Shown one piece after another: positions 19,433 through 42,996 of a stretch of DNA of 64,000 nucleotides. Under the pieces are notes generated by a model. It saw only the letters and a program-made list of their open reading frames with translations. It was not told the DNA's origin and ran no database searches. Source of the stretch: an uncultured Candidatus Saccharibacteria bacterium (lineage in GTDB: Bacteria > Patescibacteriota > Saccharimonadia > Saccharimonadales > CAYOYH01); contig CAZOFP010000001.1 of the NCBI GenBank assembly GCA_964579475.1, forward strand, positions 19,421 to 83,420, given 5' to 3'. A program made the translations under genes and the position numbers. Numbering within the stretch: position 1 is the first letter of the stretch; each line of letters begins with the position of its first letter.

Positions 19433-19963
19433 TCAAGCTAGTTCTTCTTTCCTTGCGTTCAGCACGTTTACTAGACCACGCATATTTCCCGAAAGTACAT
19501 TTACAAATCCACTTAGTGGGGCTGCAATAGTACCAACCAGTTGTCCGCGCAGTTGGTCTTTGGACGGTAGCGAAGCTAGTTGCTTCACTTGTGCTTCATC
19601 CATTACCTCACCGTTGCTATTGAACGCTCCTTTGAGGTCGATAGCTGGGTGGGTTTTGGCAAAGTTCGCTAGTGTCTGAGCTGGTGCGACTTCATCTTCG
19701 TTGTTGAAGGCGTACATTAGTTGCCCCTCAAGATTAGATGTATCTACATCTTTGAGAGTGTCAACTTTACTCATAGCAACTTTTACCAGGCGATTCTTAA
19801 CGATTACCAGTGTCGTGCCATTTTCTTTGGCAAGAATTCGAAGCTCCTGAGCTTCTTTTACAGTCATACCCGTGTACTGAGCCATGACTGTAATCTTGCT
19901 GTTAGAAAGCTTTTCAACTAGATCGCTAACAATCGATTCTTTCTTCTCCTGACTTAGCGCCAT
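19433..19963 (-). CDS. rplJ: 50S ribosomal protein L10
   Basis: Typical L10 sequence; adjacent to rplL. Confidence 0.9.
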   Translation of the reverse strand: MALSQEKKESIVSDLVEKLSNSKITVMAQYTGMTVKEAQELRILAKENGTTLVIVKNRLVKVAMSKVDTLKDVDTSNLEGQLMYAFNNEDEVAPAQTLANFAKTHPAIDLKGAFNSNGEVMDEAQVKQLASLPSKDQLRGQLVGTIAAPLSGFVNVLSGNMRGLVNVLNARKEELA

Positions 19964-20181
19964 ATGAATCTCCTTGTTGTTGATATGTTAATTTACACCC
20001 CGGGAATTAAAAAACTCTCCGGCTGTCATGCATCGAAAGAGTTTAAACAATTGAATTGTTTACTCGCCTCGGTGACTTCTTATCTCCAGCGTGCGCCAGA
20101 CGTCACTGTCTTCGGTGATGATCGAGAAAAGTTTAACGTATTCGCCTACTACTGTCAAGCAGGTGAATTATATATTTTTAT

Positions 20182-20210
20182 TTGACATCAAACCTACAGG
20201 ATAGTATCTT
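20182..20210 (+). promoter_or_regulatory. Candidate sigma70-type promoter (TTGACA - 17 nt - TATCTT) pointing into the GC-rich islet
   Basis: Consensus -35 with 17-nt spacer. The -10 is TATCTT, weaker than TATAAT; no test done. Confidence 0.35.
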
Positions 20211-20534
20211 TTTATTCGTGAGCAACATCTATTCAATCATTATTACCAAGCTAGCAGACCACTTTGTGGTACGTATGCTGGTGGGTGCGTAATATTCGAT
20301 TGAAGCTGTAACACAAATAACCCACGAGCCATCGGACTTCAATCGAAAAAGGTCCGATTTTTGTTTTAGAAGGAGTTTGTTAGTCCTAAGGAATCCAAAA
20401 CTGCTGGAAACCAAATGGACGAACAAACTGTTCGACCAAGTGTGACACCCGTCACAAATTAACAAGGAGAGGATAAGTAAGCCGACAAGGCTGAGTACGA
20501 ATTGAATATACGCTCTGATACACCGGAGGATGGT

Positions 20535-20912
20535 ATGACCACTGCAACGACACGAGACCGTGTCCTGGTTGGGGATGAATATCGCATCGTCTCTTGCGCA
20601 GACCGTGATCGACGTACTGCGTTGACTCTTTTGCCACAGGCGAAGCAACTGATTCTCAACAACGTGGAGTTCAAGAGCACGGGAAGGGGTCCGAATCGCT
20701 GCACAAGCTGGGGTGAGTATCTGTACAAGCTCGCCAGCAATGTTCATCGTGGACGCGGCAAATTTCGTTCCAACCCACGGAACCAACCACTTGCTGGCTT
20801 TGAGCTCAGTGAACAGGAGTTGAAAGACTTGGTTCTTGAGCTGGAATTTGTTATAGGCAACCGAGAGCATGCGCACAGAGTCGTTTGTCAAATGCTGATC
20901 AACGGATTCTGA
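20535..20912 (+). CDS. Hypothetical 125-aa protein encoded in a GC-rich islet between the rplJ and tmk-thyX regions
   Basis: ATG preceded by GGAGGA (4-nt spacing). Balanced composition, unlike the S/T/C-rich antisense ORF. No family recognised. Confidence 0.35.
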   Translation: MTTATTRDRVLVGDEYRIVSCADRDRRTALTLLPQAKQLILNNVEFKSTGRGPNRCTSWGEYLYKLASNVHRGRGKFRSNPRNQPLAGFELSEQELKDLVLELEFVIGNREHAHRVVCQMLINGF

Positions 20913-21187
20913 ACCCATCGGGTAAGTCCTGGAGGCAGTGACCACCCTTATCACTTCCGTGGTGGTAGTTTCGACTAATAAATCGTTATTGCCACCCCAG
21001 GCCCCGTCCATTCAAAGAGCCGAAGGGGCATACTGAGCCATCATACTCAGCGGGAACGTAACACGGCACATCCACCGTCACTTGCGCAACCACCCCTTCG
21101 GCTACCTAGGCATAGTACAAATATTTGATCGCTAACGCGATTGAAACTAACTAGCTAATCCTCTCCTTCAAAACGAAATTATCAAAT

Positions 21188-29980: not shown

Positions 29981-31618
29981 CTACTTCTTGGTTGAACCAA
30001 TTGTCAGCGAGAATGTGGAGCCAGAATTCAGCTTTGATTTTACGTCGATTTTACCGTCGATTTTTGTGGCCAATTTCTGTGTAATATGCAGCCCCAGTCC
30101 TGTGCCGCTGCTTTCTCTGGTGCGGTAATCTTCTGAGCGGAAGAACTTGTCGAAAAGTTTCTTTTGGTCGCTGGTGCTGACACCAATACCAGTATCTTTA
30201 ACTGAAAAGACAACAGTGCCGTGTTCCTTGCCGCTTTGCGCTGCGATGGTGATCGAACCTTTTTGAGTATATTTCAGTGAATTAGTGACGAAATTCTGTA
30301 AGATTTCCTGAACGTAAAGCTTGCTGTTGTTGATTGATGGCAGATTATTGGAAATATTAATTTCTAGCTTCAAGCCTTTTTGCTCGGCTTCAATTTTATA
30401 ATTTGCTTTAATCTCTCTGAGCAGGCTGGCTGGATCGATTAGGCTTATCTCCATGTCCAGAGCGCCTCTCTCTGCCCTGGCGAGGGTTGATAGGTCGTTT
30501 ATCATCGATGCCAAGAATAGGGTTTGTTCATGGGCTTCGGATAGCGACTTGCCAATCCTTTCGTCTTTCGTCTCTTTGTCGTTGACCAGCATGGCATTAG
30601 AAATCTTACCCTCGGTGATAGCGATTGGCGTGCGTAGCTCATGCGAAACGACAGAAATAAACTCGTCCCTCTCCTCTTCTAGAGATTTTTGACTAGTAAT
30701 GTCACGGAGAATCAGTGTGTAGCCTTTTTCAGAACCTTCACCGTAGCCAACGCGTATTGGAGAGATGTTTACGTAGAGATTTATTTTGTCGTCCTTGCTC
30801 AGCGAAAGAACTAAATCATCCCTGATAATTGTTTTGTGGTGTTTCTTGGCGTCTGCAATTAAATCTACACTTTCGCCGTCTTTGTCGGTTAACTTCAGGT
30901 ATTTAGATAACGGATTACCACCAATAGATTCATTCGTGTCTACCAGATCCAGTGCGGCACCATTGTAGTTGTCTATCTTGCCACTTGCATCTGTTACGAC
31001 TACGCCGTCACCCATGCTGTTAATAAGCGAGTTGATGCGAGTGTGCTCGATTTCTACGTCAGTCGTTTTAACAGACAGCTCTGTAATCTTTTCGTTGGCA
31101 ACAGTGACGATGTCGATTATAAATAGCGAAAGTAGCGTCAGAATTGCAATCATGGCTATGAAGTAGGCAAAGCTGGCAAAATCGGCATTTGGGACATCGA
31201 TGATGAATACGGCCGAGAGCATGATTATCTGCGCAAGCATACTGATAATTGCTGCTCGTCGCCCATAGAGCAGATGGCTAAGGAACACTAGCATTTGGCC
31301 CAAGAAAACAAATGGGTACTGAAGGCCTACAACGAGCAGCAGGAACAAAAAGAGCATCAAATGGTAAACAACTATCGGCATATACTTGAGTTTGCCCTTA
31401 TCTGAGCGCAACTTATGCGAATACCGCAGGTAGTCTAGTATTCCGCCGACGGCACCTAGTAGCAGACTGAAGATGAACGCTGGCCAACTTACTTCACCGC
31501 TAATGACAAGCAGAAGAAGAGGCAGTGCTACAAATAAAGGCATCAAGAAGGAGCCTTCTTTCTCGCCAGCAAGCTCCAAAGCTGAAATATTCTCCTCTGA
31601 TTCAGACTTTTTCTTCAT
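29981..31618 (-). CDS. Sensor histidine kinase (TM sensor region, PAS-like domain, HisKA, HATPase_c)
   Basis: H-box SHELRTP, N/G1/G2 boxes (DTGIGV, GSGTGLGL); N-terminal polytopic region. Confidence 0.85.
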   Translation of the reverse strand: MKKKSESEENISALELAGEKEGSFLMPLFVALPLLLLVISGEVSWPAFIFSLLLGAVGGILDYLRYSHKLRSDKGKLKYMPIVVYHLMLFLFLLLVVGLQYPFVFLGQMLVFLSHLLYGRRAAIISMLAQIIMLSAVFIIDVPNADFASFAYFIAMIAILTLLSLFIIDIVTVANEKITELSVKTTDVEIEHTRINSLINSMGDGVVVTDASGKIDNYNGAALDLVDTNESIGGNPLSKYLKLTDKDGESVDLIADAKKHHKTIIRDDLVLSLSKDDKINLYVNISPIRVGYGEGSEKGYTLILRDITSQKSLEEERDEFISVVSHELRTPIAITEGKISNAMLVNDKETKDERIGKSLSEAHEQTLFLASMINDLSTLARAERGALDMEISLIDPASLLREIKANYKIEAEQKGLKLEINISNNLPSINNSKLYVQEILQNFVTNSLKYTQKGSITIAAQSGKEHGTVVFSVKDTGIGVSTSDQKKLFDKFFRSEDYRTRESSGTGLGLHITQKLATKIDGKIDVKSKLNSGSTFSLTIGSTKK

Positions 31619-31655
31619 ATACTCATGAAATTATGGCATAAAGCTTAAGCAGTTA

Positions 31656-32354
31656 CTAGAAAATGACCATCTGTTTTAGCTGTTTGCGCTCTTGCCTGGC
31701 ACCAGGCCTGACGGTTTCGAATATCTCCCAGAAGTCGTCGCCGTGGCTCAAGGCTTTGGTGTGCGACAACTCATGCAGTAGCACATGGTCAATCAGGTCA
31801 CCGTCAAGCTTCATCAGCTGAATGTTTAGGTTTATGTTACCCGCAGACGAACAACTGCCCCATCTAGTATGGATATTTTTTAAACGTAGCTGGTTGTACT
31901 TAAAATCATAGACGTTAGCCAGCTCGCTGAGGCGTTTTGGTAGGTATTTTTTTGCCTGCTTTCGCCACACAGGCACCAAAGCTTCGATGAGCTTCTGCTG
32001 CACTTGCTTGCTGTCTGCAGACAAGGTTGCCGGATGCGTTACCTTAAAGCCTGCACCAACACTTGTTATAACTACGTCTTTTACGTCATTCTTACTTTCG
32101 AATACCACCTTGAAACCTTCGGCCAGGATATCGCCGTCATTTATTATTTTTGATTGCTTGGAGGTTACGAGTTTCTTCAGTATCCAGTCGTGGTTTTTAT
32201 TGAGGAATGAAACCACTGCCGACTTCGAAACTCCATACGGTTTCGACACTCTCACCTCCCCAGAGGCGACGCTGAGTCTAATGTTTCGAGAGCGGCGGTT
32301 AGTAGTTACCTTGACCGTCCCAACGTCAGACATTTCTATATATTCTTGTTTCAA
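31656..32354 (-). CDS. DUF45/YgjP-like (M48/WLM-type) zinc metallohydrolase
   Basis: HExxH (LLHELSH) within a DUF45-like C-terminus. Confidence 0.7.
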   Translation of the reverse strand: MKQEYIEMSDVGTVKVTTNRRSRNIRLSVASGEVRVSKPYGVSKSAVVSFLNKNHDWILKKLVTSKQSKIINDGDILAEGFKVVFESKNDVKDVVITSVGAGFKVTHPATLSADSKQVQQKLIEALVPVWRKQAKKYLPKRLSELANVYDFKYNQLRLKNIHTRWGSCSSAGNINLNIQLMKLDGDLIDHVLLHELSHTKALSHGDDFWEIFETVRPGARQERKQLKQMVIF

Positions 32355-32357
32355 AAC

Positions 32358-33002
32358 TTAGGGAGTAAACTGCCTGCGACCACCGATGCTCCGTCTTCTT
32401 GGGGTCGGCCCAGGGTGGCTTCGCTCAAATCTTGAGGGAGCTTTTTCTAGTGGTTCTATAATCTTCATTTTCTCTAGTTTCTTCAGCACTGTGAGTTCTT
32501 GGGCCGGAAAATCATATTTGCCACTCACTACAACGTACTCTTCGCCATACCCAGGAGCGGTAATTCTCCCAAGAACAGAATCGAATGTGTCTTGATTCAT
32601 GCTGAAGGAGTATTTGTCGCCATGACGCCGTTTATCTCTAGTCGAGGCGCGTGTAAATGCTGTGTTTAAATCTGTTTGCGTCCAGACCATGACGGTTCGA
32701 ATACCGCGTTTTCTAGCAATACTGACTATTTCTTGACGTTTTTTTCTCACACCGTTGTTGGCATCGTAGATAATACTTGTCTTTGTCTTCATTGCTTGCT
32801 CGAGCATATAGTCCATTAGGCGTTCGACTACTTGGTTCTCGCCGTCGCTAAACTGTGGGTCATCGAAAAGCTCATAGCGAAACCTGTCCCCACTGATGTG
32901 GATTAAGCCATGTTTGGCCGCAAATTGAGAGGCAAAGTGAGTCTTACCTGCCCCGGGGTAGCCAAACATTAGTATCAGCGTCTGTTGTCGTAGTTGAATC
33001 AT
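32358..33002 (-). CDS. P-loop kinase, zeta-toxin / AAA_33-like
   Basis: Walker A GYPGAGKTH near the N-terminus. Size and layout match zeta-toxin/polynucleotide-kinase-like proteins. Confidence 0.6.
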   Translation of the reverse strand: MIQLRQQTLILMFGYPGAGKTHFASQFAAKHGLIHISGDRFRYELFDDPQFSDGENQVVERLMDYMLEQAMKTKTSIIYDANNGVRKKRQEIVSIARKRGIRTVMVWTQTDLNTAFTRASTRDKRRHGDKYSFSMNQDTFDSVLGRITAPGYGEEYVVVSGKYDFPAQELTVLKKLEKMKIIEPLEKAPSRFERSHPGPTPRRRSIGGRRQFTP

Positions 33003-33099
33003 TGCACATATTATACCGTATATTTATATCCTCGAGAATTAAAACAGCTTTGCTCGAAAACTATTCGTTCACGACGGGGTGAAATCGCATGTAACGATG

Positions 33100-33732
33100 C
33101 TAACCCACCCACCGTACATCAAGCTCGCTAAGCACATCTAAAACACTGTTTCTTAAGACATCATAGTCCGCCGGAGGCCGCTTAAGCGAGTCACCAGTAC
33201 TAGCGGTTCTTTCCCGAAATCGTACCTTGCCTTCATTGCCATCACCTCTGTCTACATACCTACCTCCACAGCGGATTGTTGCATCTGCAAAGACAGTAGA
33301 GAATTCTTTGAAATGTCTATACGTATCCCAACTCTGTTCGGAGCTTATGTGATCGACAACTACTACGTGCCACATAGTTTTTGATTTGTCTGGACCGCTA
33401 AAAAATCCCTTAGTGTCACTCTGTATGTCTGCAAATACTGTGTTCCCTAGAAATTTTGAACTCGCAAGGATTCTCGGAATACTTCTTGGTCGTGGCTTAT
33501 TGGGGCTTGCGTTAATTGATTCTACCATTCCAAGTAGCAAGGCTCTGCAATCGTTGCTTAAAAATGGTGCTCTTTGAATATCTAGACCATTGGGTGAATA
33601 ATACTCTGCTGCAATATTACCGCTCCGGAGTTGTTCTACTTTCGCTGCATTAGCGACACGGTCTTGTGCGACACGTGCTTCTCTGTCGCGTCTTCTTCTA
33701 TCAAGCTCTTCATTTATGTCCTCAAATGTCAT
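33100..33732 (-). CDS. Hypothetical protein
   Basis: ORF with protein-like composition; no motif recognised. Confidence 0.45.
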   Translation of the reverse strand: MTFEDINEELDRRRRDREARVAQDRVANAAKVEQLRSGNIAAEYYSPNGLDIQRAPFLSNDCRALLLGMVESINASPNKPRPRSIPRILASSKFLGNTVFADIQSDTKGFFSGPDKSKTMWHVVVVDHISSEQSWDTYRHFKEFSTVFADATIRCGGRYVDRGDGNEGKVRFRERTASTGDSLKRPPADYDVLRNSVLDVLSELDVRWVG

Positions 33733-33799
33733 GCTTTAACCTTGGTTATACGTACATCTCATCATATACATTGAAGATTTGCAAGCATAAGGCATTTGC

Positions 33800-33990
33800 G
33801 GGGTGGAGGGACTTGCCTGACCAGGCAAAAGAAACATACTTTTGCAACGGTCATCGAAAACATGCCTACTGGCATATTTGTCGACAAGGAGCCGGGGAAT
33901 GCCGACTGCCATTCCCGTTCAAGTCCCAGCTCCAGAAATAACAAAGACTCCCTCAGACGAGGAAGTCGTTATTATGGCAGCCTTTAGTGG
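33800..33990. repeat. Direct repeat copy A (~190 bp) beginning with a 16-nt copy of the tRNA-Trp 3' end (GGGGTGGAGGGACTTG on the plus strand)
   Basis: ~150 nt identical to 36445..36596 and then ~40 nt with a few mismatches. Contains several internal hairpins. Confidence 0.85.
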
Positions 33991-34033
33991 ACGCACTTCA
34001 TGATTTTCATATAAGCAAAATTGAGAACTAAAA

Positions 34034-34597
34034 TTATACTGTTTCAGTCACGAATTTATGAAAACTCTTAAAGGAGTTGGATTTATCTAAGGCCTTTTCA
34101 ATATTCAAATATTTCGCAAAGTCTTCATTATTCTTAGTCATAAAGTACTTTTCTTTTTGTGAACACTTGAACACTTGATCTTTAATTTTTCCTTTAGGGT
34201 CTTGGATGGTCTCTGGTAATCCAGAAAATTTAGGCATAAATTTTAGATTTAGAGACTTCTTGATACAGCCTGGATCACTGATAAACCAAGCCTCCAGTTC
34301 TTCAACTGGGATACAAATGTATCTGTTACCAAGCCTACTAGACGATAGAATACTCTCTAGCTCTGCCCTGACTCTGTCTTCACCGTTTGTCCCATCAAGG
34401 TCCTGCACAAGTATTAAAGCGCTGCAGCCTTGTGAGTGTAGAACATCAGCCCACATTAAACATTTCCGTTTGATATTGCCTTTTCCGTTTTTAGCGAACT
34501 CCCTGAAGCCTATACCGTTTTTATCAGATATTCTACGCACTAGAACTTCGATTGTGCTTGTGTCAGTCCTGTCTTCACCTATCAACCCAATGCGCAT
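34034..34597 (-). CDS. DUF4276/RloB-type Toprim-like small protein (partner of the adjacent ABC ATPase)
   Basis: N-terminal Toprim-like G-E-D (IGLIGEDRTD) and DxD (LVQDLDG), C-terminal EELEAW. Its ATG follows the upstream ATPase stop codon directly (no intergenic gap). Confidence 0.6.
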   Translation of the reverse strand: MRIGLIGEDRTDTSTIEVLVRRISDKNGIGFREFAKNGKGNIKRKCLMWADVLHSQGCSALILVQDLDGTNGEDRVRAELESILSSSRLGNRYICIPVEELEAWFISDPGCIKKSLNLKFMPKFSGLPETIQDPKGKIKDQVFKCSQKEKYFMTKNNEDFAKYLNIEKALDKSNSFKSFHKFVTETV

Positions 34598-34600
34598 TAC

Positions 34601-35809
34601 TTATTCGCTCCTAAAACCAGTTTCTCTCCAATAATCACCAAGGCTGCCTGTGTTCAAAAGGTATTCACGCAACGCGTTATGATCATTAGAATTTAGTTTC
34701 TTTTTCAATGAACTTGCACTAGTACCATTTGAGCCTTTACCAACTAACACAATTTGCTCGGGCTCAAGTTTATCTACTACATTATCGGAATGAGTGCTTA
34801 TTATCATTTGTTTTGTCTCTGCTTTCGATTCCACAAGCTCCATAACGCTGTTGATTAAACCGTGATGTACACCTATTTCGGGCTCTTCGATTAACAATAA
34901 TTCGTTGTTATTTCGAACTATATAGTAAACCAGTGCTAAAGTTTTTAAAGTTCCTTCAGAAAGCTGTGAAGGTGATAACTGTAGACCATCAATAGTAAAA
35001 GTGGGTATGACAATGTTGCGATCTATATCGATTTTTTCTATTCCGCCTCCTGGCTTCACCCTAATATTGCTATTGGGGACTGTGACATTTTGAAAATTAA
35101 TGTCTTCAATAAGCCCTATCCCTAGTGGGCCTACGGCGTTAATAAAAAGCTGGAACGACTTATCGTCACTCCTGCTCGAGTTATATATATCAAAAAGAAA
35201 TTTTCGATGTATGTTGGATTCTCCGTAACTTCTTGGAAGTTCACCATCTTCGATTTCTATTGATATTGGGCTGTCTGCAGGATTGGAGAAATGGGTTGCA
35301 CTGTAGTACCTAATACCAAAGAGGAATTCATTAAGCTTCGCTAAGAACTGGTTGATATCTTTTGAAGGAGTAAAGTACCTTTTCTTTAGACTTTCGGGGA
35401 TACTGTCATTCCCGAATTGTTGGATTACACTAAATGCTTGACTGCTGATCTCATGCCTCTTTTCATTAGTGCCCCCCATTTTCTTTACATGTAATTCTGA
35501 TACATCGATATCGTCCTGGTCGTATTGGTCAAAAAATATTTCTAGGAATAACCTATACGTATTGTCACCATCAGAAACGTCAGCTTCGATAAGTGATGAT
35601 GACAATGACTTAACTCCAGACCTCGGTGGACGTGCACGTCTATACCCTAGGCTGTAAATGCCTTTTTTGAGCAAGCCTATAGCAGCTAAAATATTAGTCT
35701 TTCCAGCACCGTTCCTCCCAATGAGAACTGTCGGATTTGTGCTAATTGCAAGTTTTGTGTCAATAAGAGATCTGTAGTTCTCGATTCTAATTTGAGTAAG
35801 CTTTAACAT
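34601..35809 (-). CDS. ABC-type/SMC-like ATPase of the AAA_21/OLD-AbiL-PARIS class
   Basis: Walker A GRNGAGKTN near the N-terminus; distal Walker B LLLIEEPE and H-loop (HH/STHS). Confidence 0.75.
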   Translation of the reverse strand: MLKLTQIRIENYRSLIDTKLAISTNPTVLIGRNGAGKTNILAAIGLLKKGIYSLGYRRARPPRSGVKSLSSSLIEADVSDGDNTYRLFLEIFFDQYDQDDIDVSELHVKKMGGTNEKRHEISSQAFSVIQQFGNDSIPESLKKRYFTPSKDINQFLAKLNEFLFGIRYYSATHFSNPADSPISIEIEDGELPRSYGESNIHRKFLFDIYNSSRSDDKSFQLFINAVGPLGIGLIEDINFQNVTVPNSNIRVKPGGGIEKIDIDRNIVIPTFTIDGLQLSPSQLSEGTLKTLALVYYIVRNNNELLLIEEPEIGVHHGLINSVMELVESKAETKQMIISTHSDNVVDKLEPEQIVLVGKGSNGTSASSLKKKLNSNDHNALREYLLNTGSLGDYWRETGFRSE

Positions 35810-36444
35810 ATGTATTCCTCTCTAATGCCTTAATGGTAACCTACGAAGATGCTTGACTCCAAACAGCAAGTTCATGGGATTTTCGAATTTGGAGCAAGAT
35901 AAAAACAAAGTTTTTGATGAAGAGAAGCCTTAACGTTAGTGCTTGTTGCATTCAATAAGTAGTGTATGATGCAATTAGCTTGAATTGTGAATGCACAATT
36001 CGTGTACTTATTAAGAGCTCCGCGCACCCAATGAGGTCCATTCGGATCAACAGATCGCTATAACAAGAGAGCCAGGCATTATAAATGAGCTAAACCATTT
36101 ATAGTGTCTTTTTTATTTCTATCTCTAGAAGTTAGGGGACCTATACAGGTTATCTACTAACTTAATGAGGTAGTTCGTAATGCTTGGAACTATTTGGGAT
36201 CTGGGATTATGTCGAAACCCGCGCCCTTTACGCCTCACTTTGATTCAAAATTGTTTCGCGGCCAGTCCAGAGAGAACTGATTTCATTGCTGGCGAGGCAA
36301 GGCATGTTTATGCGCAAGTGGCTGTGTATGTGATACTGCTACTGAGCATGAATATGTCTTAACGAAGTTAGAAATGAAAAAGCTTACGCAGGTGTCGCAA
36401 ACTTTGTTTGTGAGCAGTACGTAAGCTGTTCAGACTCTCTGGCA

Positions 36445-36619
36445 GGGGTGGAGGGACTTGCCTGACCAGGCAAAAGAAACATACTTTTGCAACGGTCATC
36501 GAAAACATGCCTACTGGCATATTTGTCGACAAGGAGCCGGGGAATGCCGACTGCCATTCCCGTTCAAGTCCCAGCTCCAGAAATAACAAAGACTCTCTCG
36601 AATGAGAAAGTCGTTGTTA
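36445..36619. repeat. Direct repeat copy B, immediately abutting tRNA-Trp
   Basis: Same unit as 33800..33990. Ends with TGGCAG, which supplies the discriminator and CCA complement of the tRNA. Confidence 0.85.
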
Positions 36620-36696
36620 TGGCAGGGGTGGAGGGACTTGAACCCGCGACCTTCGGTTTTGGAGACCGACGCTCTAGCCAGCTGAGCTACACCCCT
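36620..36696 (-). tRNA. trnW: tRNA-Trp (anticodon CCA), CCA encoded
   Basis: Cloverleaf by hand-folding: acceptor AGGGGTG/CACCCCT, D-arm GCTC...GAGC, anticodon stem TCGGT/ACCGA with loop CTCCAAA, T-loop TTCAAGT. One C-U mismatch in the T-stem. Confidence 0.8.
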
Positions 36697-36890
36697 ATGC
36701 TTGGTTGATTATAACTGAAATGTTCAAATCTGGGACTCTCCCACCGATATTTCCCCTGACGGAGAAATTCGTCGGGCCCACCTCGCGGTCTTCGCCTTTC
36801 ACTTTCGCTCAAACTCAGGCAACGCTCCGGTCTTGCGAACCTACAAAAGTGAAACAGTTCACTTTTGCTTTACGGTTCTCACCCGAGAAC

Positions 36891-36933
36891 TTCGTTTTGG
36901 AGACCACGACCAAAACCAGCTGAGCTACACTCC
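36891..36933 (-). pseudogene. Degenerate partial copy of the tRNA-Trp 5' half (pseudo-tRNA fragment)
   Basis: CTTCGTTTTGGAGACCACGACCAAAACCAGCTGAGCTACACTCC parallels the tRNA-Trp anticodon/D-arm/acceptor region, but the D-stem is disrupted. Confidence 0.4.
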
Positions 36934-37076
36934 TATGGCACACATATAATCTACATGGATTTTATGTGTATTGCTATCTTTACAACAAAAACTGCTAATT
37001 ATCTCTGTTTTCGTACTTGTCATAACAGTAGCTTAAGCACTATAATCATCGAAGAAGATAAACAGAGAAAAAGTAA

Positions 37077-38327
37077 GTGAAAATATTGATGCTCGGGTGG
37101 GAGCTTCCACCACATTATGTTGGCGGCATGGGTGTCGTTTGCTACAGCCTATGTGAACACCTTGCGAAATCTGGTGCTGATATTGAATTTATTCTTCCTT
37201 TCGAAGCAGATTACAGCGATATAAAGTTCATGAAGGTCAATCCCGACATAACTAAATCTATCGCTAGCGGTAAAATTAGCTATTCAACTTTGGACAAGAT
37301 GAACGCTACAGCTTACGGCAAAGCAGACATTTCTTCTTCGACTGCCAGAGAGATGGGCGTTATGCCTCTGGATGAGATTAATGATATCTTCCTACAGAAG
37401 GTCATGAAAGCTTCTATACTGGGGAACTTCGACATCATCCACGCTCATGATTGGCTCACTCTCCGAGGTGCAATGCTGGCTAAACGTATCACTGGCTTAC
37501 CTCTCGTCGTTCACATCCACGCCACTGAATTTGACCGTTCTGGTGTTGACGAGAATGAACGCGGCAACGAAATGATTCACCTTATCGAGTACGAGGGGAT
37601 GATGATGGCAGATACCATAATCGCGGTCTCGCAGTGGACTAAAGATATCATCGTCAAACGCTACCGTATTTCTCCAGACAAAATTCAAGTGGTTCACAAT
37701 AGTATTGATCTGGACAGCCCCTACATAAGAGCCGCCGATGATTTGGCGACTGATTTTCATTACCTAGAGACGATGCAGAAGCACGGTTACAGTGTAGTGA
37801 TAAATGCTGGACGGCAATCCATCCAAAAGGGACTTCCTGGCATGCTCGAGGCAGCCAAGCTAGCACTTGAAATCAATCCTAAAATTATTTTTGTGATGGT
37901 TGGTTCTGGCGATATGCACAACGAATTAATCGAAAAAGCAGCCTATCTTGGCATTAGTCGTAACGTAATGTTCACTGGATTCATTAAAGGCAAACAACTG
38001 AGAGACATATATAAGATTGCTGATTTGTTCGTGATGCCCTCTGTGTCAGAGCCATTTGGAAGTACACCGCTTGAAGCAATCGGCCTGGGAACGCCAGTAC
38101 TCATATCAAAGCAATCTGGCGTCAGTGAAGTTATAAAGAATGCTTTAAAAGTTGATTTTTGGGATGCGCAGGAGATGGCTAACAGTATGGTTGCTGTCAC
38201 GATGAATCAGGGTCTAAAAGAGGATTTGACTACAAATGGCTACTCCGAGTTTCTTAGCCAGTCTTGGATTCAGGCGGCTGATAAGACATTGCACGCCTAC
38301 CAGTGCGCGGTGGGGGCGATCACATGA
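37077..38327 (+). CDS. Glycogen/alpha-glucan synthase-like glycosyltransferase (GT4/GT5-type), GTG start
   Basis: N-terminal glycogen-synthase-like motif (GGMGVV) and GT-B C-terminal E-x7-E block (EPFGSTPLEA). Confidence 0.65.
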   Translation: MKILMLGWELPPHYVGGMGVVCYSLCEHLAKSGADIEFILPFEADYSDIKFMKVNPDITKSIASGKISYSTLDKMNATAYGKADISSSTAREMGVMPLDEINDIFLQKVMKASILGNFDIIHAHDWLTLRGAMLAKRITGLPLVVHIHATEFDRSGVDENERGNEMIHLIEYEGMMMADTIIAVSQWTKDIIVKRYRISPDKIQVVHNSIDLDSPYIRAADDLATDFHYLETMQKHGYSVVINAGRQSIQKGLPGMLEAAKLALEINPKIIFVMVGSGDMHNELIEKAAYLGISRNVMFTGFIKGKQLRDIYKIADLFVMPSVSEPFGSTPLEAIGLGTPVLISKQSGVSEVIKNALKVDFWDAQEMANSMVAVTMNQGLKEDLTTNGYSEFLSQSWIQAADKTLHAYQCAVGAIT

Positions 38328-39538
38328 GCAAAGCGGTTAGTTTATACCTACATTTGCACCAACCCTATCGGGTTAAACCCTACAGCATTTTCCGAGCTGG
38401 CACTGATCATATGTATTTCAACGATCAAACCCCCAACACTGACACTAACAATGAATTCATAATTCGAAAAGTAACCGAAAAGTCATACCTGCCAACTAAT
38501 GAAATCCTCCTTGAATTACTCAATAAGCATGAGAAATTCAAACTAAGCATATCCATGCCTGGCACCATCATCGAACAGTTCGAAAATTGGGCGCCAGACG
38601 CTCTAGAAAGCTTCAAGAGACTGGTCGACACTGGTAAAGTCGAGATTTTAGCTGAAACTTATCATCACTCATTGGCGTTTTTCTATGACCGTGAGGAATT
38701 TGAAACTCAAGTGAGAATGCACCGAGAAAAGATTCAGCAAGTGTTTGGTGTCACGCCTACGGCATTTAGAAATACAGAGCTTAGCTATAACAATGACCTT
38801 GCCTATTGGGCTGACCAAGCTGGCTACAAAGCCATAATCACCGAAGGTTGGGATCCAATTCTTGGTTGGCGCAGTCCAAACTTTGTCTATCGCCCCGCTT
38901 ACACCAACTACATTCGTTTGCTGGTAAAAAACTACAGGCTGTCAGATGACGTTGCCTTTCGTTTCTCTAATCAAGACTGGCCAGAGTGGCCACTAACCTC
39001 TGAAAAATATGTTCATTGGCTAAATGCAATTCCCGACGAAGACGAAGTGGTGAATCTGTTCATGGACTACGAGACTTTCGGAGAACACCAATGGGAACAC
39101 TCCGGTATCTTTGATTTCTTGCGACACTTCCCTGGCGAATTTTTGAAGCAGGAGGGAAATGAATTTGTAACTATCACAGAATCTTCGGAAAAATTTGAGG
39201 CAAAGGACTTCATTGATGTTCCACATATTCTGACTTGGGCCGACACCGAGAGAGACTTGACTGCTTGGACTGGTAACGCCATGCAACACCAAGCCATTAG
39301 CGCCATATATGACCTCAAGAAACAAGTTATTGAGTCTAATGACCTAGATTTGATAGAAGATTGGCGAAAGTTACAGGGTTCTGATCATTTCTATTACATG
39401 TGTACTAAATGGTTCAACGACGGCGACGTTCACGCCTATTTCAGCCCCTATGATTCTCCATACGAAGCTTTCATTCATTACATGAACGTTTTACACGATA
39501 TGCGCTTTAGGCTGGTTGAGAAGGGGTTTGATGTCTAG
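38324..39538 (+). CDS. Glycoside hydrolase family 57 (alpha-amylase / 4-alpha-glucanotransferase / branching-enzyme type)
   Basis: GH57 hallmark YLHLHQPYR near the N-terminus. ATGA overlap with the upstream GT. Confidence 0.8.
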   Translation: MSKAVSLYLHLHQPYRVKPYSIFRAGTDHMYFNDQTPNTDTNNEFIIRKVTEKSYLPTNEILLELLNKHEKFKLSISMPGTIIEQFENWAPDALESFKRLVDTGKVEILAETYHHSLAFFYDREEFETQVRMHREKIQQVFGVTPTAFRNTELSYNNDLAYWADQAGYKAIITEGWDPILGWRSPNFVYRPAYTNYIRLLVKNYRLSDDVAFRFSNQDWPEWPLTSEKYVHWLNAIPDEDEVVNLFMDYETFGEHQWEHSGIFDFLRHFPGEFLKQEGNEFVTITESSEKFEAKDFIDVPHILTWADTERDLTAWTGNAMQHQAISAIYDLKKQVIESNDLDLIEDWRKLQGSDHFYYMCTKWFNDGDVHAYFSPYDSPYEAFIHYMNVLHDMRFRLVEKGFDV

Positions 39539-41489
39539 GCCGCTGTTTCTTGGCAATGGTCATATGCTTGTCGGGTTAAATAGTTTTGGCCTAGTTCATG
39601 ATTTCTATTTTCCCTACGCGGGTTATGAAAATCATCTGTCAGAGGACGGCCAACGACACAAAATAGGCATATGGGTAGACGGCAAATTCAGCTGGCTAGA
39701 CGACGGTACCTGGAGTACGTCGATTACTTATGAGGATATGGCTCTAATTGGGCACATTAGGGCTTTAAATGATAACTTAGGCATCGTTTTGGAGTTCACA
39801 GATTTCGTTGACAGTGAGCTGTCGGCTTTCATCAGGAACGTGCACGTTGTTAATAAAAGCGACGTCAGACGCGAAATTCGTGTCTTCTTTCACCAAGTTT
39901 TTGAGATTAGCGAATCTAACAGAGGCGATAGTGCTATATATGTCCCCGCAGAAAAAGCTATTCTAAACTACAAAGGGCACAGAAACTTCGTAATTTCTGG
40001 CAACAGAGCGGACGGTTTAAGTTTCGATCAATATGGCATCGGCAATTACGGTATAGAGGGTAAGGAAGGCACCTACAAGGACGCAGAGGACGGCCAGCTT
40101 TCAGGTAATGCTGTCGAGCACGGTCGTGTCGATAGCGCCATTGGTTTCACGCTTAATATCGCCTCCCATTCATCTAGAAGAGTTAACTATTGGGTCGCTG
40201 CCGGGCAAACTAGAGATGCGGCTTTTGGCATAAGTAGAAAAATCCGCGACGATTCTGTACACACCAGACACGCCATTACACAAAACTTCTACCATGAGTG
40301 GCTGACTATTGCAGAGCCAAAAATATTGAAACTACCTAAGAAATACCGACATTACGTGATTAAATCGTTGTTGATTATAAAATCTCACATCGATGCCCGT
40401 GGTGCGATTATTGCGTCTGGTGATTCGCAAATGCTTAATTACGCCAGGGATTACTATGGATACTTCTGGCCAAGAGACGGCGCATTTATCATCTGGCCAC
40501 TTATTCGACTTGGTTACACTGAGGAAGCCAAGAATTTTTTTAATTTTTGTAAAAACGTTCTAACCCCCGGTGGGTACTTCATGCATAAATATTTGCCCGA
40601 TGAATCTGTGGGCAGTACCTGGCACGCGGCGATTGAAAATGGCCACGACGAGCTACCAATCCAGGAAGACGAAACTGCAATTGTCATCTTCATGCTCAAC
40701 GAGTATATGCAGTATTCAAACGACACCGACTTTGTTGAGTTGATGTTCACCAAGCTAGTCAAACCTGCGATAAAATACATTTTAGAGTTTATGGATAAAG
40801 AAACGGGTCTTCCTCATCAGAGCTTTGATCTTTGGGAGGAAAAGTTCCAAACCACCACCTACACAACCGCTACGGTATATGGGGCGCTAGTAGCGGCTCG
40901 CGAGATTGCCGAAACTTTGAATTTCTCTGAAGACGCACTGGCCTGGAAGGAGGCCGCCACCGCCCTGAGAAAAAAGGCCCAGATCATATTTTTCAATAAA
41001 GACAAAGGCTACTTTTACAAAGGCTACCAAATAGTTGACGGCACAATGAAGTTCGATGACACTATCGATGTCTCTAGCCTGTTTGGCGCTGTACTGTTTG
41101 GTCTTTTCGATATCGATGACCCACGTGTCCTGCAAGCCGAGAAAACTCTCGAAGCCACCCTGGTGGATTCACCAAAAGTTAATGGGACACCTAGGTACGA
41201 GAACGATCAGTACAACCTAAATGATAAATCGGCTAAGGGCAATCCGTGGTTCGTAACTTCGTTTTGGTATGCGCAGTACATGGTGGAGCGCGGCAACAAA
41301 GAGTTCGCCGAGAAAGTGCTCAACTGGAGCCTAGATTATATGTTGCCGACTGGAGTATTGCCTGAACAAATAGACACCAACGAAGGAACCTATATTTCGG
41401 TTGCGCCTCTGATATGGAGCCAAGCAGAATTTATTAATACTGTATTCGATCTTTACTCGGCTAGGGATCTGCCCGATGAAGATACCTAA
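39531..41489 (+). CDS. Glycoside hydrolase family 15-like (glucoamylase/glucodextranase; N-terminal beta-sandwich plus (alpha/alpha)6 barrel)
   Basis: GH15-like catalytic-region blocks (DLWEE, WFVTSFWYAQY). Overlaps the GH57 stop. Confidence 0.75.
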   Translation: MSRPLFLGNGHMLVGLNSFGLVHDFYFPYAGYENHLSEDGQRHKIGIWVDGKFSWLDDGTWSTSITYEDMALIGHIRALNDNLGIVLEFTDFVDSELSAFIRNVHVVNKSDVRREIRVFFHQVFEISESNRGDSAIYVPAEKAILNYKGHRNFVISGNRADGLSFDQYGIGNYGIEGKEGTYKDAEDGQLSGNAVEHGRVDSAIGFTLNIASHSSRRVNYWVAAGQTRDAAFGISRKIRDDSVHTRHAITQNFYHEWLTIAEPKILKLPKKYRHYVIKSLLIIKSHIDARGAIIASGDSQMLNYARDYYGYFWPRDGAFIIWPLIRLGYTEEAKNFFNFCKNVLTPGGYFMHKYLPDESVGSTWHAAIENGHDELPIQEDETAIVIFMLNEYMQYSNDTDFVELMFTKLVKPAIKYILEFMDKETGLPHQSFDLWEEKFQTTTYTTATVYGALVAAREIAETLNFSEDALAWKEAATALRKKAQIIFFNKDKGYFYKGYQIVDGTMKFDDTIDVSSLFGAVLFGLFDIDDPRVLQAEKTLEATLVDSPKVNGTPRYENDQYNLNDKSAKGNPWFVTSFWYAQYMVERGNKEFAEKVLNWSLDYMLPTGVLPEQIDTNEGTYISVAPLIWSQAEFINTVFDLYSARDLPDEDT

Positions 41490-42495: not shown

Positions 42496-42570
42496 TGGAG
42501 CCCCGACCGAGACTTGAACTCGGGACCTCATCCTTACCATGGATGCGCTCTACCACTGAGCTATCGGGGC
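42496..42570 (-). tRNA. tRNA-Thr (anticodon GGT), CCA encoded
   Basis: Hand-folded cloverleaf: acceptor GCCCCGA/TCGGGGC, D-arm GCTC..GAGC, anticodon stem CATCC/GGATG with loop ATGGTAA, T-arm CCGAG-TTCAAGT-CTCGG. Confidence 0.85.
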
Positions 42571-42613
42571 ACCATCACCACAAGATTATATCAGAATGTA
42601 GCTTATGTTGGCA

Positions 42614-42642
42614 TTGCGATTTACATCTGTTTTTGATACTAT
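42614..42642 (+). promoter_or_regulatory. Candidate promoter (TTGCGA - 17 nt - TACTAT) upstream of tRNA-Thr(TGT)/tRNA-Tyr
   Basis: Near-consensus -35/-10 with 17-nt spacing, ~20 nt before the tRNA 5' end. Confidence 0.4.
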
Positions 42643-42661
42643 TTCCTGCGTCCAGACAGAT

Positions 42662-42738
42662 GCCGGCATAGCTCAGTTGGCTAGAGCAACGGTTTTGTAA
42701 ACCGTAGGTCGCGGGTTCGAATCCCCCTGCCGGCTCCA
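42662..42738 (+). tRNA. tRNA-Thr (anticodon TGT), CCA encoded
   Basis: Acceptor GCCGGCA/TGCCGGC, D-arm GCTC..GAGC, anticodon stem ACGGT/ACCGT with loop TTTGTAA, T-loop TTCGAAT. One mismatch in the T-stem. Confidence 0.8.
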
Positions 42739-42878
42739 TAATCTTTTGTTCGTCAAATGACGAGCGAAAGATTATAGTATCTGTAAGGCGAATCCTTTTG
42801 CAAAACAGGGGTTCGATCACAAGGTTCACGCGTAGAAGTTTACTTCGAGCATGAGTCGCAGAGAGTAGCGGTAGCGTC

Positions 42879-42896
42879 ATCCCTCTGCCGGCTGCA
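42879..42896 (+). repeat. Duplicated 3'-end fragment of tRNA-Thr(TGT) (ATCCCTCTGCCGGCTGCA vs ATCCCCCTGCCGGCTCCA)
   Basis: 18-nt near-copy located ~140 nt downstream of the intact tRNA. Confidence 0.5.
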
Positions 42897-42909
42897 TTTA
42901 CATTACAAT

Positions 42910-42996
42910 GCTGGGATAGCGAAGCGGTCAAACGCAGCAGGCTGTAAACCTGCCGGCCTAGTGCCTACGTAGGTTCGAGTCCTACTCCCAGCACCA
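42910..42996 (+). tRNA. tRNA-Tyr (anticodon GTA), long variable arm, CCA encoded
   Basis: Acceptor GCTGGGA/TCCCAGC, anticodon stem GCAGG/CCTGC with loop CTGTAAA, T-arm GTAGG-TTCGAGT-CCTAC. Confidence 0.85.

What the first reader, a model, noticed from the sequence alone, without database searches (positions are those of the whole stretch)
33800..36696. Two-gene ABC-ATPase + DUF4276/Toprim-like defence-type module inside a 2.8-kb islet bounded by direct repeats derived from the tRNA-Trp 3' end
A 402-aa ABC/SMC-like ATPase (Walker A GRNGAGKTN, Walker B LLLIEEPE) is followed directly by a 187-aa Toprim-like protein (GED and DxD motifs). This gene pair is typical of split OLD-family, AbiL and PARIS-like anti-phage systems. 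The pair sits between two copies of a ~190-bp repeat (33800..33990 and 36445..36619), each starting with a 16-nt copy of the 3' end of tRNA-Trp; copy B abuts the intact tRNA-Trp (36620..36696). This is the footprint of integrase-mediated insertion at a tRNA with att duplication. No integrase gene remains, so it looks like a decayed or trans-mobilised defence islet. A further pseudo-tRNA fragment (36891..36933) indicates repeated events at this site.
Basis: partly seen in the sequence, partly recalled or inferred. Interest (0 to 1): 0.7.

Follow-up and report, generated by a model that had tools for sequence, protein, structure and literature searches.

The report
Candidate defence gene pair beside tRNA-Trp
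A tiny-genome Saccharimonadales bacterium has picked up, next to its tRNA-Trp gene, a foreign two-gene cassette (ATPase plus Toprim-type nuclease) of an already catalogued but unproven anti-phage family, so it is a tidy but fairly ordinary mobile defence islet.

Summary
A 181-nt direct repeat (33800-33980 / 36445-36625, 175/181 identical) brackets a two-gene operon on the 3' side of tRNA-Trp (36620-36696, minus strand). The genes are an ABC/SMC-type ATPase (34601-35809) and a DUF4276 protein (34034-34597). Both have their best PADLOC matches in HEC-01A and HEC-01B, a catalogued candidate defence pair. The one HEC-01 tested in E. coli protected against no phage tested.

The host is a Saccharimonadales (CPR) bacterium. 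The cassette looks foreign:
- It has the lowest GC of any segment in the window.
- Its nearest homologues are only about 46% identical.
- It is absent from the conserved AAA33-tRNA-Trp-glycosyltransferase synteny of 13 distant relatives.

No integrase was found nearby. A Maribacter homologue of the pair sits in a classic integrase-bearing tRNA-Met island.

The other ~160 nt is a strongly structured unit that starts with a terminator hairpin. Similar units follow tRNA-Trp in two other Saccharimonadales genomes. The duplication is therefore more than a simple att duplication, and homologous recombination cannot be excluded.

Verdict: new member of a known kind, moderate-to-low interest. The defence function is inferred.

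The parts
33100..33732 (-). hyp210: a 210-aa ORFan between the conserved AAA33 kinase-like gene and repeat A. It lies outside the repeat-bounded unit but inside the lineage-specific insertion.
   Evidence: It has no Pfam, PADLOC, PHROG or NCBIfam match. It finds only itself among 5.8 billion proteins and one 32%-identical protein in 1.84 billion representatives. It has no tblastn hit in 29 Saccharimonadales loci. Its GC3 is 0.35, against 0.47-0.55 for neighbouring core genes.
33795..33815 (-). att4: the distal partial copy of the tRNA-Trp 3' end (16 of 21 nt; the CCA-end part has decayed).
33800..33980 (.). Direct repeat copy A (181 nt). It consists of the 16-nt tRNA 3'-end copy, a ~160-nt structured unit X, and TGGCAG.
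   Evidence: The unit folds strongly (z -4.7 for 150 nt).
33946..33967 (-). Terminator-like hairpin of copy A, 67 nt downstream of the DUF4276 stop codon. It probably terminates the cassette operon.
   Evidence: All 6 differences from copy B lie in or beside this hairpin and preserve its pairing: one U-A to C-G compensatory pair, one C to U giving G-U, and three loop changes.
33975..34002 (-). att3-like: a degenerate resemblance to the tRNA-Trp T-loop/acceptor 3' end at the inner edge of copy A. This is a weak call, by eye.
   Evidence: Read directly from the sequence. TGGCAG is exact, then about 10-11 of 13-15 positions match with an indel. It was not tested statistically.
34034..34597 (-). 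DUF4276 protein (187 aa), a predicted Toprim-superfamily nuclease of HEC-01B type.
   Evidence: - Pfam DUF4276 E 2.6e-10; PADLOC HEC-01B E 3e-12.
- E8, D9, D12, D66, D68, E99, E100 and E102 are invariant across 13 homologues.
- The AlphaFold2 model has pLDDT 91.8, with E8 after strand 1 and DxD after strand 3.
34601..35809 (-). ABC/SMC-type ATPase (402 aa) of HEC-01A type.
   Evidence: - Pfam AAA_21 E 2e-25, AAA_15 E 9e-22, SMC_N E 3e-13; PADLOC HEC-01A E 2e-29.
- Walker A (G31-K37), signature LSEG (283-286), Walker B (L306-E311) and the H-loop (T339-H340) are invariant in 16 homologues.
- PDB sequence hits are weak and confined to the N-terminal P-loop of GajA, retron Ec83 ATPase and Rad50.
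35810..36439 (.). A 630-nt non-coding spacer upstream of the ATPase gene. It presumably holds the promoter. No integrase remnant was detected.
   Evidence: No ORF exceeds 62 aa, and there are no Pfam or PHROG hits. Rfam finds nothing. Folding is unremarkable (z -2.1). A terminator-like hairpin at 36405-36379 (minus strand) directly follows att2.
36440..36460 (-). att2: a perfect 21-nt copy of the tRNA-Trp 3' end (T-loop C56 to CCA).
   Evidence: family D3, 100%.
36445..36625 (.). Direct repeat copy B (181 nt). It abuts the tRNA-Trp 3' end and overlaps it by 6 nt.
   Evidence: RNA fold of 36440-36625 on the minus strand gives -77.3 kcal/mol, z -6.75.
36591..36612 (-). Terminator-like hairpin of copy B, immediately downstream of tRNA-Trp.
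36620..36696 (-). Intact tRNA-Trp (CCA anticodon), with the CCA end encoded.
36881..36938 (-). Pseudo-tRNA: the 5' part of a tRNA-Trp (positions 1-54 plus leader). Its similarity stops in the T-loop.
   Evidence: The match ends at ...GGGT, whereas the att copies begin at CAAGTCCC. Together they partition a tRNA at the T-loop.

Best explanation
This is a horizontally acquired islet without an integrase. Its repeat period is 2,645 bp and its span is 2,826 bp. It sits on the 3' side of tRNA-Trp in a Saccharimonadales (CPR/TM7) genome.

It carries one operon of the PADLOC candidate type HEC-01: an ABC/SMC-like ATPase translationally coupled to a DUF4276 Toprim-superfamily nuclease.

Most likely mechanism, by analogy with PARIS and OLD/Gabija (inferred): the ATPase oligomer holds or regulates the nuclease and senses an invader cue. 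ATP binding or hydrolysis then licenses the Toprim active site (E8, D66xD68, E99-E102) to cut nucleic acid, either DNA or tRNA. This blocks a phage or other mobile element.

Delivery (inferred): recombination at the tRNA-Trp T-loop/3'-end hotspot. The incoming DNA carried its own copy of the resident ~160-nt unit plus att. That left 181-bp direct repeats, which can now delete the islet by homologous recombination. The first hairpin of each repeat serves as a terminator, for tRNA-Trp in copy B and for the cassette operon in copy A.

Shown: family identity, intact catalytic motifs, conservation of the gene pair, foreign composition, repeat anatomy, and absence from the syntenic site of relatives.

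Inferred: complex formation, the trigger, the substrate, the defence phenotype, and the recombination route.
For: Family identity:
- Pfam and PADLOC assign the proteins to AAA_21/AAA_15/SMC_N and DUF4276, with best PADLOC matches in HEC-01A and HEC-01B.
- The catalytic residues are invariant in homologues.
- The Toprim signature lies where expected on a pLDDT 91.8 model. Published work places DUF4276 and HEC-01B in the Toprim superfamily.
- The pair is adjacent and co-oriented in 4 of 4 homologue contexts examined.

Foreign origin:
- GC is 0.385 against 0.448 +/- 0.015 for the window, the lowest of all 1.8-kb segments. GC3 is 0.36-0.38 against 0.47-0.55.
- The nearest ATPase homologue is 46% identical, and the named hits are mostly Bacteroidota.
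- There is no tblastn hit in 29 Saccharimonadales loci. In 8 of them, AAA33, tRNA-Trp and GT lie within a few hundred nt of one another.

Link to tRNA islands:
- The repeats and att copies are documented.
- The pseudo-tRNA and the att copies partition a tRNA at the T-loop.
- In Maribacter litopenaei the homologous pair lies in a ~14.4-kb island at tRNA-Met. That island has an adjacent tyrosine integrase and a 44-47-nt repeat of the tRNA 3' part.
- The closest homologue lies 390 nt from a tRNA-Asn.

The sequence is real: independent contigs carry it.
Against: - The only HEC-01 representative tested gave no protection in E. coli.
- No integrase was found, so site-specific delivery is unproven. 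A 181-bp repeat is far longer than a normal att core.
- No close relative or population variant with an empty site was found. The comparators share only 30-53% protein identity.
- The genomic neighbours of homologues L083, L084 and L090 are not defence islands.
Confidence: 0.65

Rival explanations
1. Same cassette, different route. The islet entered by RecA-type homologous (Campbell) recombination, or arose by unequal crossing-over through a pre-existing ~180-nt unit downstream of tRNA-Trp. No integrase acted in the last step, and the tRNA-derived 16-21 nt are relics of older events.
For: - The repeat is 181 nt, and about 160 nt of it is not tRNA sequence.
- Comparable X-plus-att units follow tRNA-Trp in L010 and L013 without this cassette.
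- The first 151 nt of the two copies are identical and all 6 differences cluster in the next 21 nt (repeat positions 152-172). That mosaic suggests a crossover or gene conversion.
- No integrase is present.
Against: - The inner edge of copy A still shows a degenerate tRNA 3'-end-like stretch, and the pseudo-tRNA and att copies partition exactly in the T-loop. Both point to site-specific events at some stage.
- A homologous pair rides an integrase island at a tRNA in Maribacter.
Confidence: 0.35
2. The pair is not an anti-phage system. It could be a selfish addiction or toxin-like module, or a DNA-repair or mobile-element maintenance function that merely travels on mobile DNA.
For: - HEC-01 gave no protection in the only test.
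- Three of the four homologue contexts examined are ordinary metabolic neighbourhoods.
- Pfam describes AAA_21 as a 'putative AbiEii toxin' type domain.
- There are weak N-terminal similarities to RecF and Rad50.
Against: - The RecF and Rad50 hits cover only the P-loop and fall far below the family cut-offs.
- ABC ATPase plus Toprim is the architecture of several proven defence systems, including OLD, Gabija and PARIS.
- HEC-01 was defined by its embedding in Hma defence loci.
- DUF4276 is an effector domain in Menshen and MADS.
Confidence: 0.2
3. The arrangement is an assembly or binning artefact: a chimeric join at a repeat in a metagenome-assembled genome.
For: The source is a MAG. The repeat is longer than typical assembler k-mers. 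Logan contigs break near the repeat.
Against: - Contig VAPM010740171.1 spans hyp210, repeat A, DUF4276 and ATPase at 100% identity.
- The two repeat copies differ at 6 positions, including compensatory changes.
- The cassette was recovered from three assemblies.
- The repeat B side was not independently confirmed.
Confidence: 0.05

Closest known systems
PADLOC HEC-01 (Hma-embedded candidate 01; HEC-01A ABC ATPase + HEC-01B TOPRIM/DUF4276), Payne et al. bioRxiv 10.1101/2024.01.29.577857
   Same: The two-gene architecture and gene order match. Both proteins have their best PADLOC hits in HEC-01 models. The ABC ATPase motifs and the Toprim acidic residues are conserved.
   Different: The pair here is not embedded in an Hma system. 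It stands alone in a tRNA-linked islet of a CPR bacterium. It is about 46% identical at most to any other member found. The family has no demonstrated phenotype.
PARIS (AriA ABC ATPase + AriB DUF4435 Toprim nuclease)
   Same: Both are split pairs of an AAA_15/21 ATPase and a Toprim-superfamily nuclease. The ATPase hits AriA models at E 3e-25. PARIS offers a plausible working model: the ATPase scaffold releases or activates the nuclease on a trigger.
   Different: The second protein is DUF4276, not DUF4435, and has no AriB model hit. The PARIS paper places DUF4276 partners as a separate domain class. The trigger and substrate are unknown here.
OLD-family nucleases / Gabija GajA (fused ABC ATPase-Toprim)
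   Different: The domains are split into two proteins rather than fused. There is no GajB/UvrD helicase partner. The Pfam Toprim_Old model was not matched.
MADS Mad3/Mad4 (methylation-associated defence system)
   Same: The best NCBIfam hits are MAD3 for the ATPase and, faintly, MAD4 for the DUF4276 protein. The PADLOC mad3 model hits at E 4e-22. Mad4 is a DUF4276 homologue.
   Different: Scores are far below the equivalog cut-offs: 76 against 420 bits, and 14 against 160 bits. No methyltransferase or other mad genes lie nearby.
tRNA-integrated genomic islands and their integrase-less derivatives (cis-mobilisable elements, tandem accretion)
   Same: The position is on the tRNA 3' side. Direct repeats contain the tRNA T-loop-to-CCA segment. 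Composition is foreign. The cargo is a defence-type cassette. The Maribacter homologue island shows the complete form, with an integrase.
   Different: There is no integrase. The repeat is 181 bp and is mostly non-tRNA structured sequence. An extra truncated pseudo-tRNA lies upstream.

Membership tests
PADLOC HEC-01 | Protein A matches HEC-01A HMMs (ABC ATPase of AAA_15/AAA_21 type). | tested here: met
   The best PADLOC hits are HEC-01A models, at E 2.2e-29, 1.7e-28 and 1.7e-26. Pfam gives AAA_21, AAA_15 and SMC_N.
PADLOC HEC-01 | Protein B matches HEC-01B HMMs (TOPRIM/DUF4276). | tested here: met
   15 of its 16 PADLOC hits carry a HEC-01 label (14 HEC-01B, one HEC-01A); the best is E 3e-12. 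Pfam DUF4276 scores 41.3 bits against a cut-off of 30.2.
PADLOC HEC-01 | The two genes are adjacent and co-oriented. | tested here: met
   A 3-nt gap separates them on the same strand. The same arrangement is seen in L083, L084, L089 and L090.
PADLOC HEC-01 | Anti-phage activity. | not testable with these tools
   The published representative gave no protection in E. coli.
Toprim superfamily (for the DUF4276 protein) | A conserved Glu after strand 1 and a DxD after strand 3 of a four-stranded alpha/beta core. | tested here: met
   E8 follows strand 2-7 and D66-x-D68 follows strand 60-65 in the model (pLDDT 91.8). Both are invariant in 13 sequences. The criterion is as described in PMC12065111.
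Toprim superfamily (for the DUF4276 protein) | The closest structural neighbours are Toprim domains. | tested here: inconclusive
PARIS | The AriB partner has a DUF4435 Toprim domain. | tested here: not met
   Protein B has no AriB or DUF4435 hit in PADLOC or Pfam.
OLD class 1 / Gabija | A single polypeptide with ATPase and Toprim_Old domains. Gabija additionally needs a GajB helicase. | tested here: not met
   The domains are on two proteins. No helicase ORF lies in 33000-37100.
AbiL | AbiLi ATPase plus an AbiLii partner. | tested here: not met
   The ATPase hits AbiLi at E 2.6e-25, but protein B has no AbiLii hit.
MADS | Mad3 and Mad4 equivalogs within a multi-gene locus that includes a methyltransferase. 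| tested here: not met
   NCBIfam MAD3 scores 75.9 bits against a cut-off of 420, and MAD4 13.7 against 160. The flanking genes are hyp210, the AAA33 kinase-like gene and a tRNA.
tRNA-integrated genomic island | Located at the 3' end of a tRNA gene and flanked by direct repeats that include the tRNA 3' segment. | tested here: met
tRNA-integrated genomic island | Encodes an integrase next to the tRNA. | tested here: not met
   There is no integrase domain in the ORFs of 29981-41489. A regex search found no tyrosine-recombinase HxxR-type motif in any window ORF (a weak test).
tRNA-integrated genomic island | Composition differs from the host, and the island is absent from related genomes. | tested here: met
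   GC lies 4 sd below the window mean. The cassette is absent from the syntenic site in 13 relatives that have tRNA-Trp there. These relatives are distant, and no conspecific empty site was found.

The most novel reading that the evidence does not exclude
The ~160-nt structured units that end in a copy of the host's own tRNA-Trp 3' end may not be scars. They occur in this window (twice), in L010 (two in tandem) and in L013. They could be the recombination modules of a cassette-capture or accretion platform specific to Saccharimonadales at the tRNA-Trp T-loop. A trans-acting recombinase would serve the platform, loosely as attC sites work in integrons or as cis-mobilisable elements work. The HEC-01 pair would be one captured cassette, and the flipping orientation of the tRNA among relatives would be a by-product.
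Probability: 0.07. Interest if true: 0.7.

Novelty: new member of a known kind. Interest (0 to 1): 0.33.

Why it matters
CPR/Saccharibacteria have tiny genomes and are thought to carry few defences beyond restriction-modification. A clean, datable acquisition of a candidate ABC-ATPase/Toprim system at a tRNA hotspot adds to the picture of defence genes arriving on genomic islands in Patescibacteria (PMC12455944).

It also offers a compact HEC-01 variant, 1.8 kb with its own terminator, for functional testing of a family that still has no phenotype.

The recurrent tRNA-Trp-linked structured units hint at how integrase-less islets are gained and lost in these genomes.

Tried and rejected
- **Rfam.** Searches of 33600-37100 and of the L010 and L013 units found only tRNA. 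No family matches the 160-nt unit.
- **IMG/VR.** Two 22-23-mers of the unit gave 0 hits.
- **JGI metagenomes.** A 22-mer scan returned only the same organism's contig, so there was no empty-site variant.
- **Exact-protein look-ups.** The glycosyltransferase and hyp210 are not on record. The AAA33 and ATPase look-ups gave only short Logan contigs that break near the repeats.
- **Integrase relic in the spacer.** Six-frame pieces of the 630-nt spacer had no Pfam or PHROG hits.
- **Housekeeping reading of the ATPase.** RecF, Rad50 and ABC-transporter hits cover only the P-loop or signature regions and fall far below cut-offs. This reading is rejected.
- **Unit X as an antisense tRNA.** It has an inverted T-loop-like motif, and L010 X1 has a cloverleaf-like fold. 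Neither ARAGORN nor Rfam supports a tRNA.
- **Aligning the X units of the three genomes.** Only the architecture is shared (terminator hairpin, GGAnTTGAAC motif, terminal att). There is no usable sequence homology, so no covariance model was built.
- **Structure searches for Toprim.** The results were ambiguous.
Full report
**1. Checking the observation**

ARAGORN and Rfam both find an intact tRNA-Trp(cca) at 36620-36696 on the minus strand. A 181-nt direct repeat lies at 33800-33980 and 36445-36625, with 175/181 positions identical (blastn E 1.6e-87).

The repeat begins, in plus-strand coordinates, with GGGGTGGAGGGACTTG. This is the complement of the tRNA's T-loop-to-acceptor 3' segment. The 16-mer occurs exactly three times in the 64-kb window. 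Only 0.29 matches are expected even with three mismatches allowed. At copy B the tRNA-derived stretch is a perfect 21-mer (36440-36460). At copy A, 16 of 21 positions survive. Each repeat ends with TGGCAG, the CCA end. In copy B those six bases are the real 3' end of the tRNA.

Between the repeats lie two minus-strand ORFs, 3 nt apart. One is 402 aa (34601-35809) and the other 187 aa (34034-34597). A 630-nt non-coding spacer follows (35810-36439).

The repeat is 181 nt rather than about 190, and copy A ends at 33980.

A metagenome contig from another assembly (VAPM010740171.1) is 100% identical to 33433-35469 and spans the repeat A junction. The DUF4276 gene was recovered from three assemblies. 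The two repeat copies differ at six positions, so an assembler's duplication of one sequence is unlikely.

**2. The proteins**

The 402-aa protein matches Pfam AAA_21 (E 2e-25), AAA_15 (E 9e-22) and SMC_N (E 3e-13). The 187-aa protein matches DUF4276 above its gathering score.

In PADLOC-DB the best models are HEC-01A for the first protein (E 2e-29) and HEC-01B for the second (E 3e-12). The ATPase also hits AbiLi, AriA, mad3, Old, PtuA and GajA models. The second protein hits only HEC-01-type models and one faint PDC model. NCBIfam gives MAD3 and MAD4 as best hits, but far below their cut-offs.

Across 16 ATPase homologues, Walker A, the LSEG signature, Walker B and the H-loop are invariant. 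Across 13 DUF4276 homologues, E8, D9, D12, D66, D68 and the CIPVEELEAWF block are invariant.

An AlphaFold2 model of the DUF4276 protein has pLDDT 91.8. It places E8 right after strand 1 and D66-x-D68 right after strand 3. That is the Toprim signature described for DUF4276 in PMC12065111 and for HEC-01B in the HEC preprint.

The pair is therefore a member of the catalogued candidate family HEC-01. It is not PARIS, AbiL, fused OLD/Gabija or MADS.

**3. Genomic setting**

The glycosyltransferase next to the tRNA finds Saccharimonadales / Candidatus Saccharibacteria MAGs as its best relatives, at no more than 53% identity. The host is thus a CPR bacterium with no close relative in the species-representative collection.

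In these distant relatives the order histidine kinase, YgjP, AAA33 kinase-like, tRNA-Trp, glycosyltransferase, GH57, glucoamylase is conserved. In eight of them the AAA33 gene, tRNA-Trp and glycosyltransferase are separated by only about 80-270 nt. Here, 3.6 kb lies between AAA33 and the tRNA: the ORFan hyp210 plus the islet.

None of the 29 loci has a tblastn hit to the ATPase, the DUF4276 protein or hyp210.

Wherever more than 1 kb of extra DNA occurs at this locus, it lies on the 3' side of tRNA-Trp. This holds for L010, L011, L013, L014, L024 and this window. In L014 the extra DNA includes a type IV secretion coupling protein.

The cassette genes have GC 0.385, the lowest of all 1.8-kb segments of the window (mean 0.448, sd 0.015). 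Their GC3 is 0.36-0.38 against 0.47-0.55 for neighbouring genes.

The nearest ATPase homologue is 46% identical. The named hits are mostly Bacteroidota.

The two genes stay together in all four homologue contexts examined. In Maribacter litopenaei the pair lies inside a ~14.4-kb island that starts at tRNA-Met. That island has a tyrosine integrase next to the tRNA and ends with a 44-47-nt repeat of the tRNA 3' part. The closest homologue lies 390 nt from a tRNA-Asn.

No integrase domain occurs in the ORFs flanking the islet, and no relic was found in the spacer. A simple motif scan of all window ORFs was also negative.

**4.

Only the outer 16-21 nt and the inner 6 nt of each repeat come from the tRNA. 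The remaining ~160 nt (unit X) is unusually structured. It folds at -77.3 kcal/mol, z -6.75, on the tRNA strand.

On that strand X starts with a long terminator-like hairpin (36612-36591 in copy B, 33967-33946 in copy A). In copy B the hairpin directly follows tRNA-Trp. In copy A it lies 67 nt after the DUF4276 stop codon, so it can terminate the cassette operon.

All six differences between the copies fall in this hairpin region, at 33951-33971. All of them preserve pairing: one U-A to C-G double change, one C to U giving a G-U pair, and three loop changes. The first 151 nt are identical. That mosaic suggests a crossover or conversion tract and selection on the hairpin.

X also contains an inverted copy of the T-loop segment (GGGACTTGAAC).

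Comparable units exist elsewhere. In L010 the tRNA-Trp is followed after 161 nt by a 20/20 copy of its own 3' end, and after about another 160 nt by a degenerate third copy. In L013 a copy follows after 169 nt. These units share the architecture but not the sequence, and no Rfam family matches them.

Upstream of the tRNA, the pseudo-tRNA (36881-36934) matches tRNA-Trp positions 1-54 and stops at GGGT in the T-loop. The att copies begin at CAAGTCCC. The two kinds of fragment therefore partition a tRNA within one or two bases of each other in the T-loop. This is the expected signature of site-specific events there.

The orientation of tRNA-Trp between the same two flanking genes also differs among relatives.

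**5. Explanation**

The simplest account is as follows. tRNA-Trp is a recombination hotspot in this lineage. A resident X-att unit already followed the tRNA. DNA carrying the HEC-01 pair together with its own X-att copy, presumably from a related donor locus, was then inserted. Insertion was either by a trans-acting integrase at the att core or by homologous recombination through X. This left 181-bp direct repeats with a period of 2,645 bp.

The islet has no mobility gene of its own and can be lost by recombination between the repeats.

Functionally, the pair most likely works like other ABC-ATPase/Toprim systems. An ATPase oligomer senses an invader and licenses a metal-dependent nuclease. 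Whether the target is DNA (as in OLD and Gabija) or tRNA (as in PARIS) is unknown.

The domains, motifs, operon coupling, foreign origin and repeat anatomy are shown. Complex formation, trigger, substrate, defence phenotype and recombination route are inferred. The one published test of HEC-01 was negative, so defence is a likelihood, not a fact.

**6. Novelty and verdict**

The gene pair belongs to a catalogued candidate family. tRNA-linked islets without an integrase are well known, and genomic islands bearing defence genes have been described in Patescibacteria. This is a new member of a known kind.

The mildly unusual features are the CPR host, the long structured repeat that doubles as a terminator, and the recurrence of X-att units at tRNA-Trp in other Saccharimonadales.

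Interest is 0.33. The most novel reading not excluded is that the X-att units are functional recombination modules of a cassette platform (probability about 0.07).

Noticed in passing
L010:5816-6214; L013:1139-1382; window 36440-36696: In three distantly related Saccharimonadales genomes, tRNA-Trp is followed by ~160-180-nt units. Each unit starts with a terminator-like hairpin, holds an inverted T-loop-like motif (GGAnTTGAAC), and ends in a direct copy of that genome's own tRNA-Trp 3' end. L010 has two such units in tandem. No Rfam family matches them.
   Followed up: partly
window 36881-36938 versus 36440-36460 and 33795-33815: The pseudo-tRNA keeps tRNA-Trp positions 1-54 and loses similarity at GGGT in the T-loop. 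The displaced 3' copies begin at CAAGTCCC. Together they partition a tRNA at the T-loop, as if an element carrying its own tRNA-Trp had once split an ancestral gene.
   Followed up: partly
window 33946-33975 versus 36591-36620: All six differences between the two 181-nt repeat copies lie in or beside the terminator hairpin and preserve its pairing, including one U-A to C-G compensatory double change. The first 151 nt are identical.
   Followed up: yes
L008, L010, L011, L013, L014, L017, L019, L022, L024, L028 (plus strand) versus L015, L020, L023, L025 and the window (minus strand): The orientation of tRNA-Trp relative to the conserved flanking glycosyltransferase gene (and the AAA33 gene where the contig holds it) flips among relatives. 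This implies repeated inversion or replacement of the tRNA gene at one site.
   Followed up: no
window 33100-33732 (minus strand): This 210-aa ORFan lies next to the islet. It has no family match and only one remote homologue (32% identity, L086) among 1.84 billion representatives. Its GC3 is low (0.35). It may be older acquired DNA at the same hotspot.
   Followed up: partly
L089:6416-20934 (Maribacter litopenaei CP104205): A ~14.4-kb island at tRNA-Met carries a tyrosine integrase (7508-8635), the homologous ATPase + DUF4276 pair (10001-11783), a split second integrase (19520-20729), and a 44-47-nt repeat of the tRNA 3' part at 20888-20934.
   Followed up: partly
L014:7198-9807: An 869-aa type IV secretion coupling protein (TrwB/TraD-like) lies directly on the 3' side of tRNA-Trp in another Saccharimonadales MAG. 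It suggests a remnant of a conjugative element at the same hotspot.
   Followed up: partly
window 42496-42996 and the matching positions in L002-L028: A tRNA-Thr(ggt) / tRNA-Thr(tgt) / tRNA-Tyr cluster downstream of the glucoamylase gene is conserved across relatives. Its order and orientation are rearranged between genomes.
   Followed up: no
L010:6818-9896 and L013:1442-4812: Between tRNA-Trp and the glycosyltransferase, two relatives carry three ORFs that, from reading the ORF listing translations only (no family search was run), resemble oxidative pentose-phosphate enzymes (6-phosphogluconolactonase, 6-phosphogluconate dehydrogenase, glucose-6-phosphate dehydrogenase). Not all variable DNA on the tRNA 3' side is mobile or defence cargo.
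   Followed up: no
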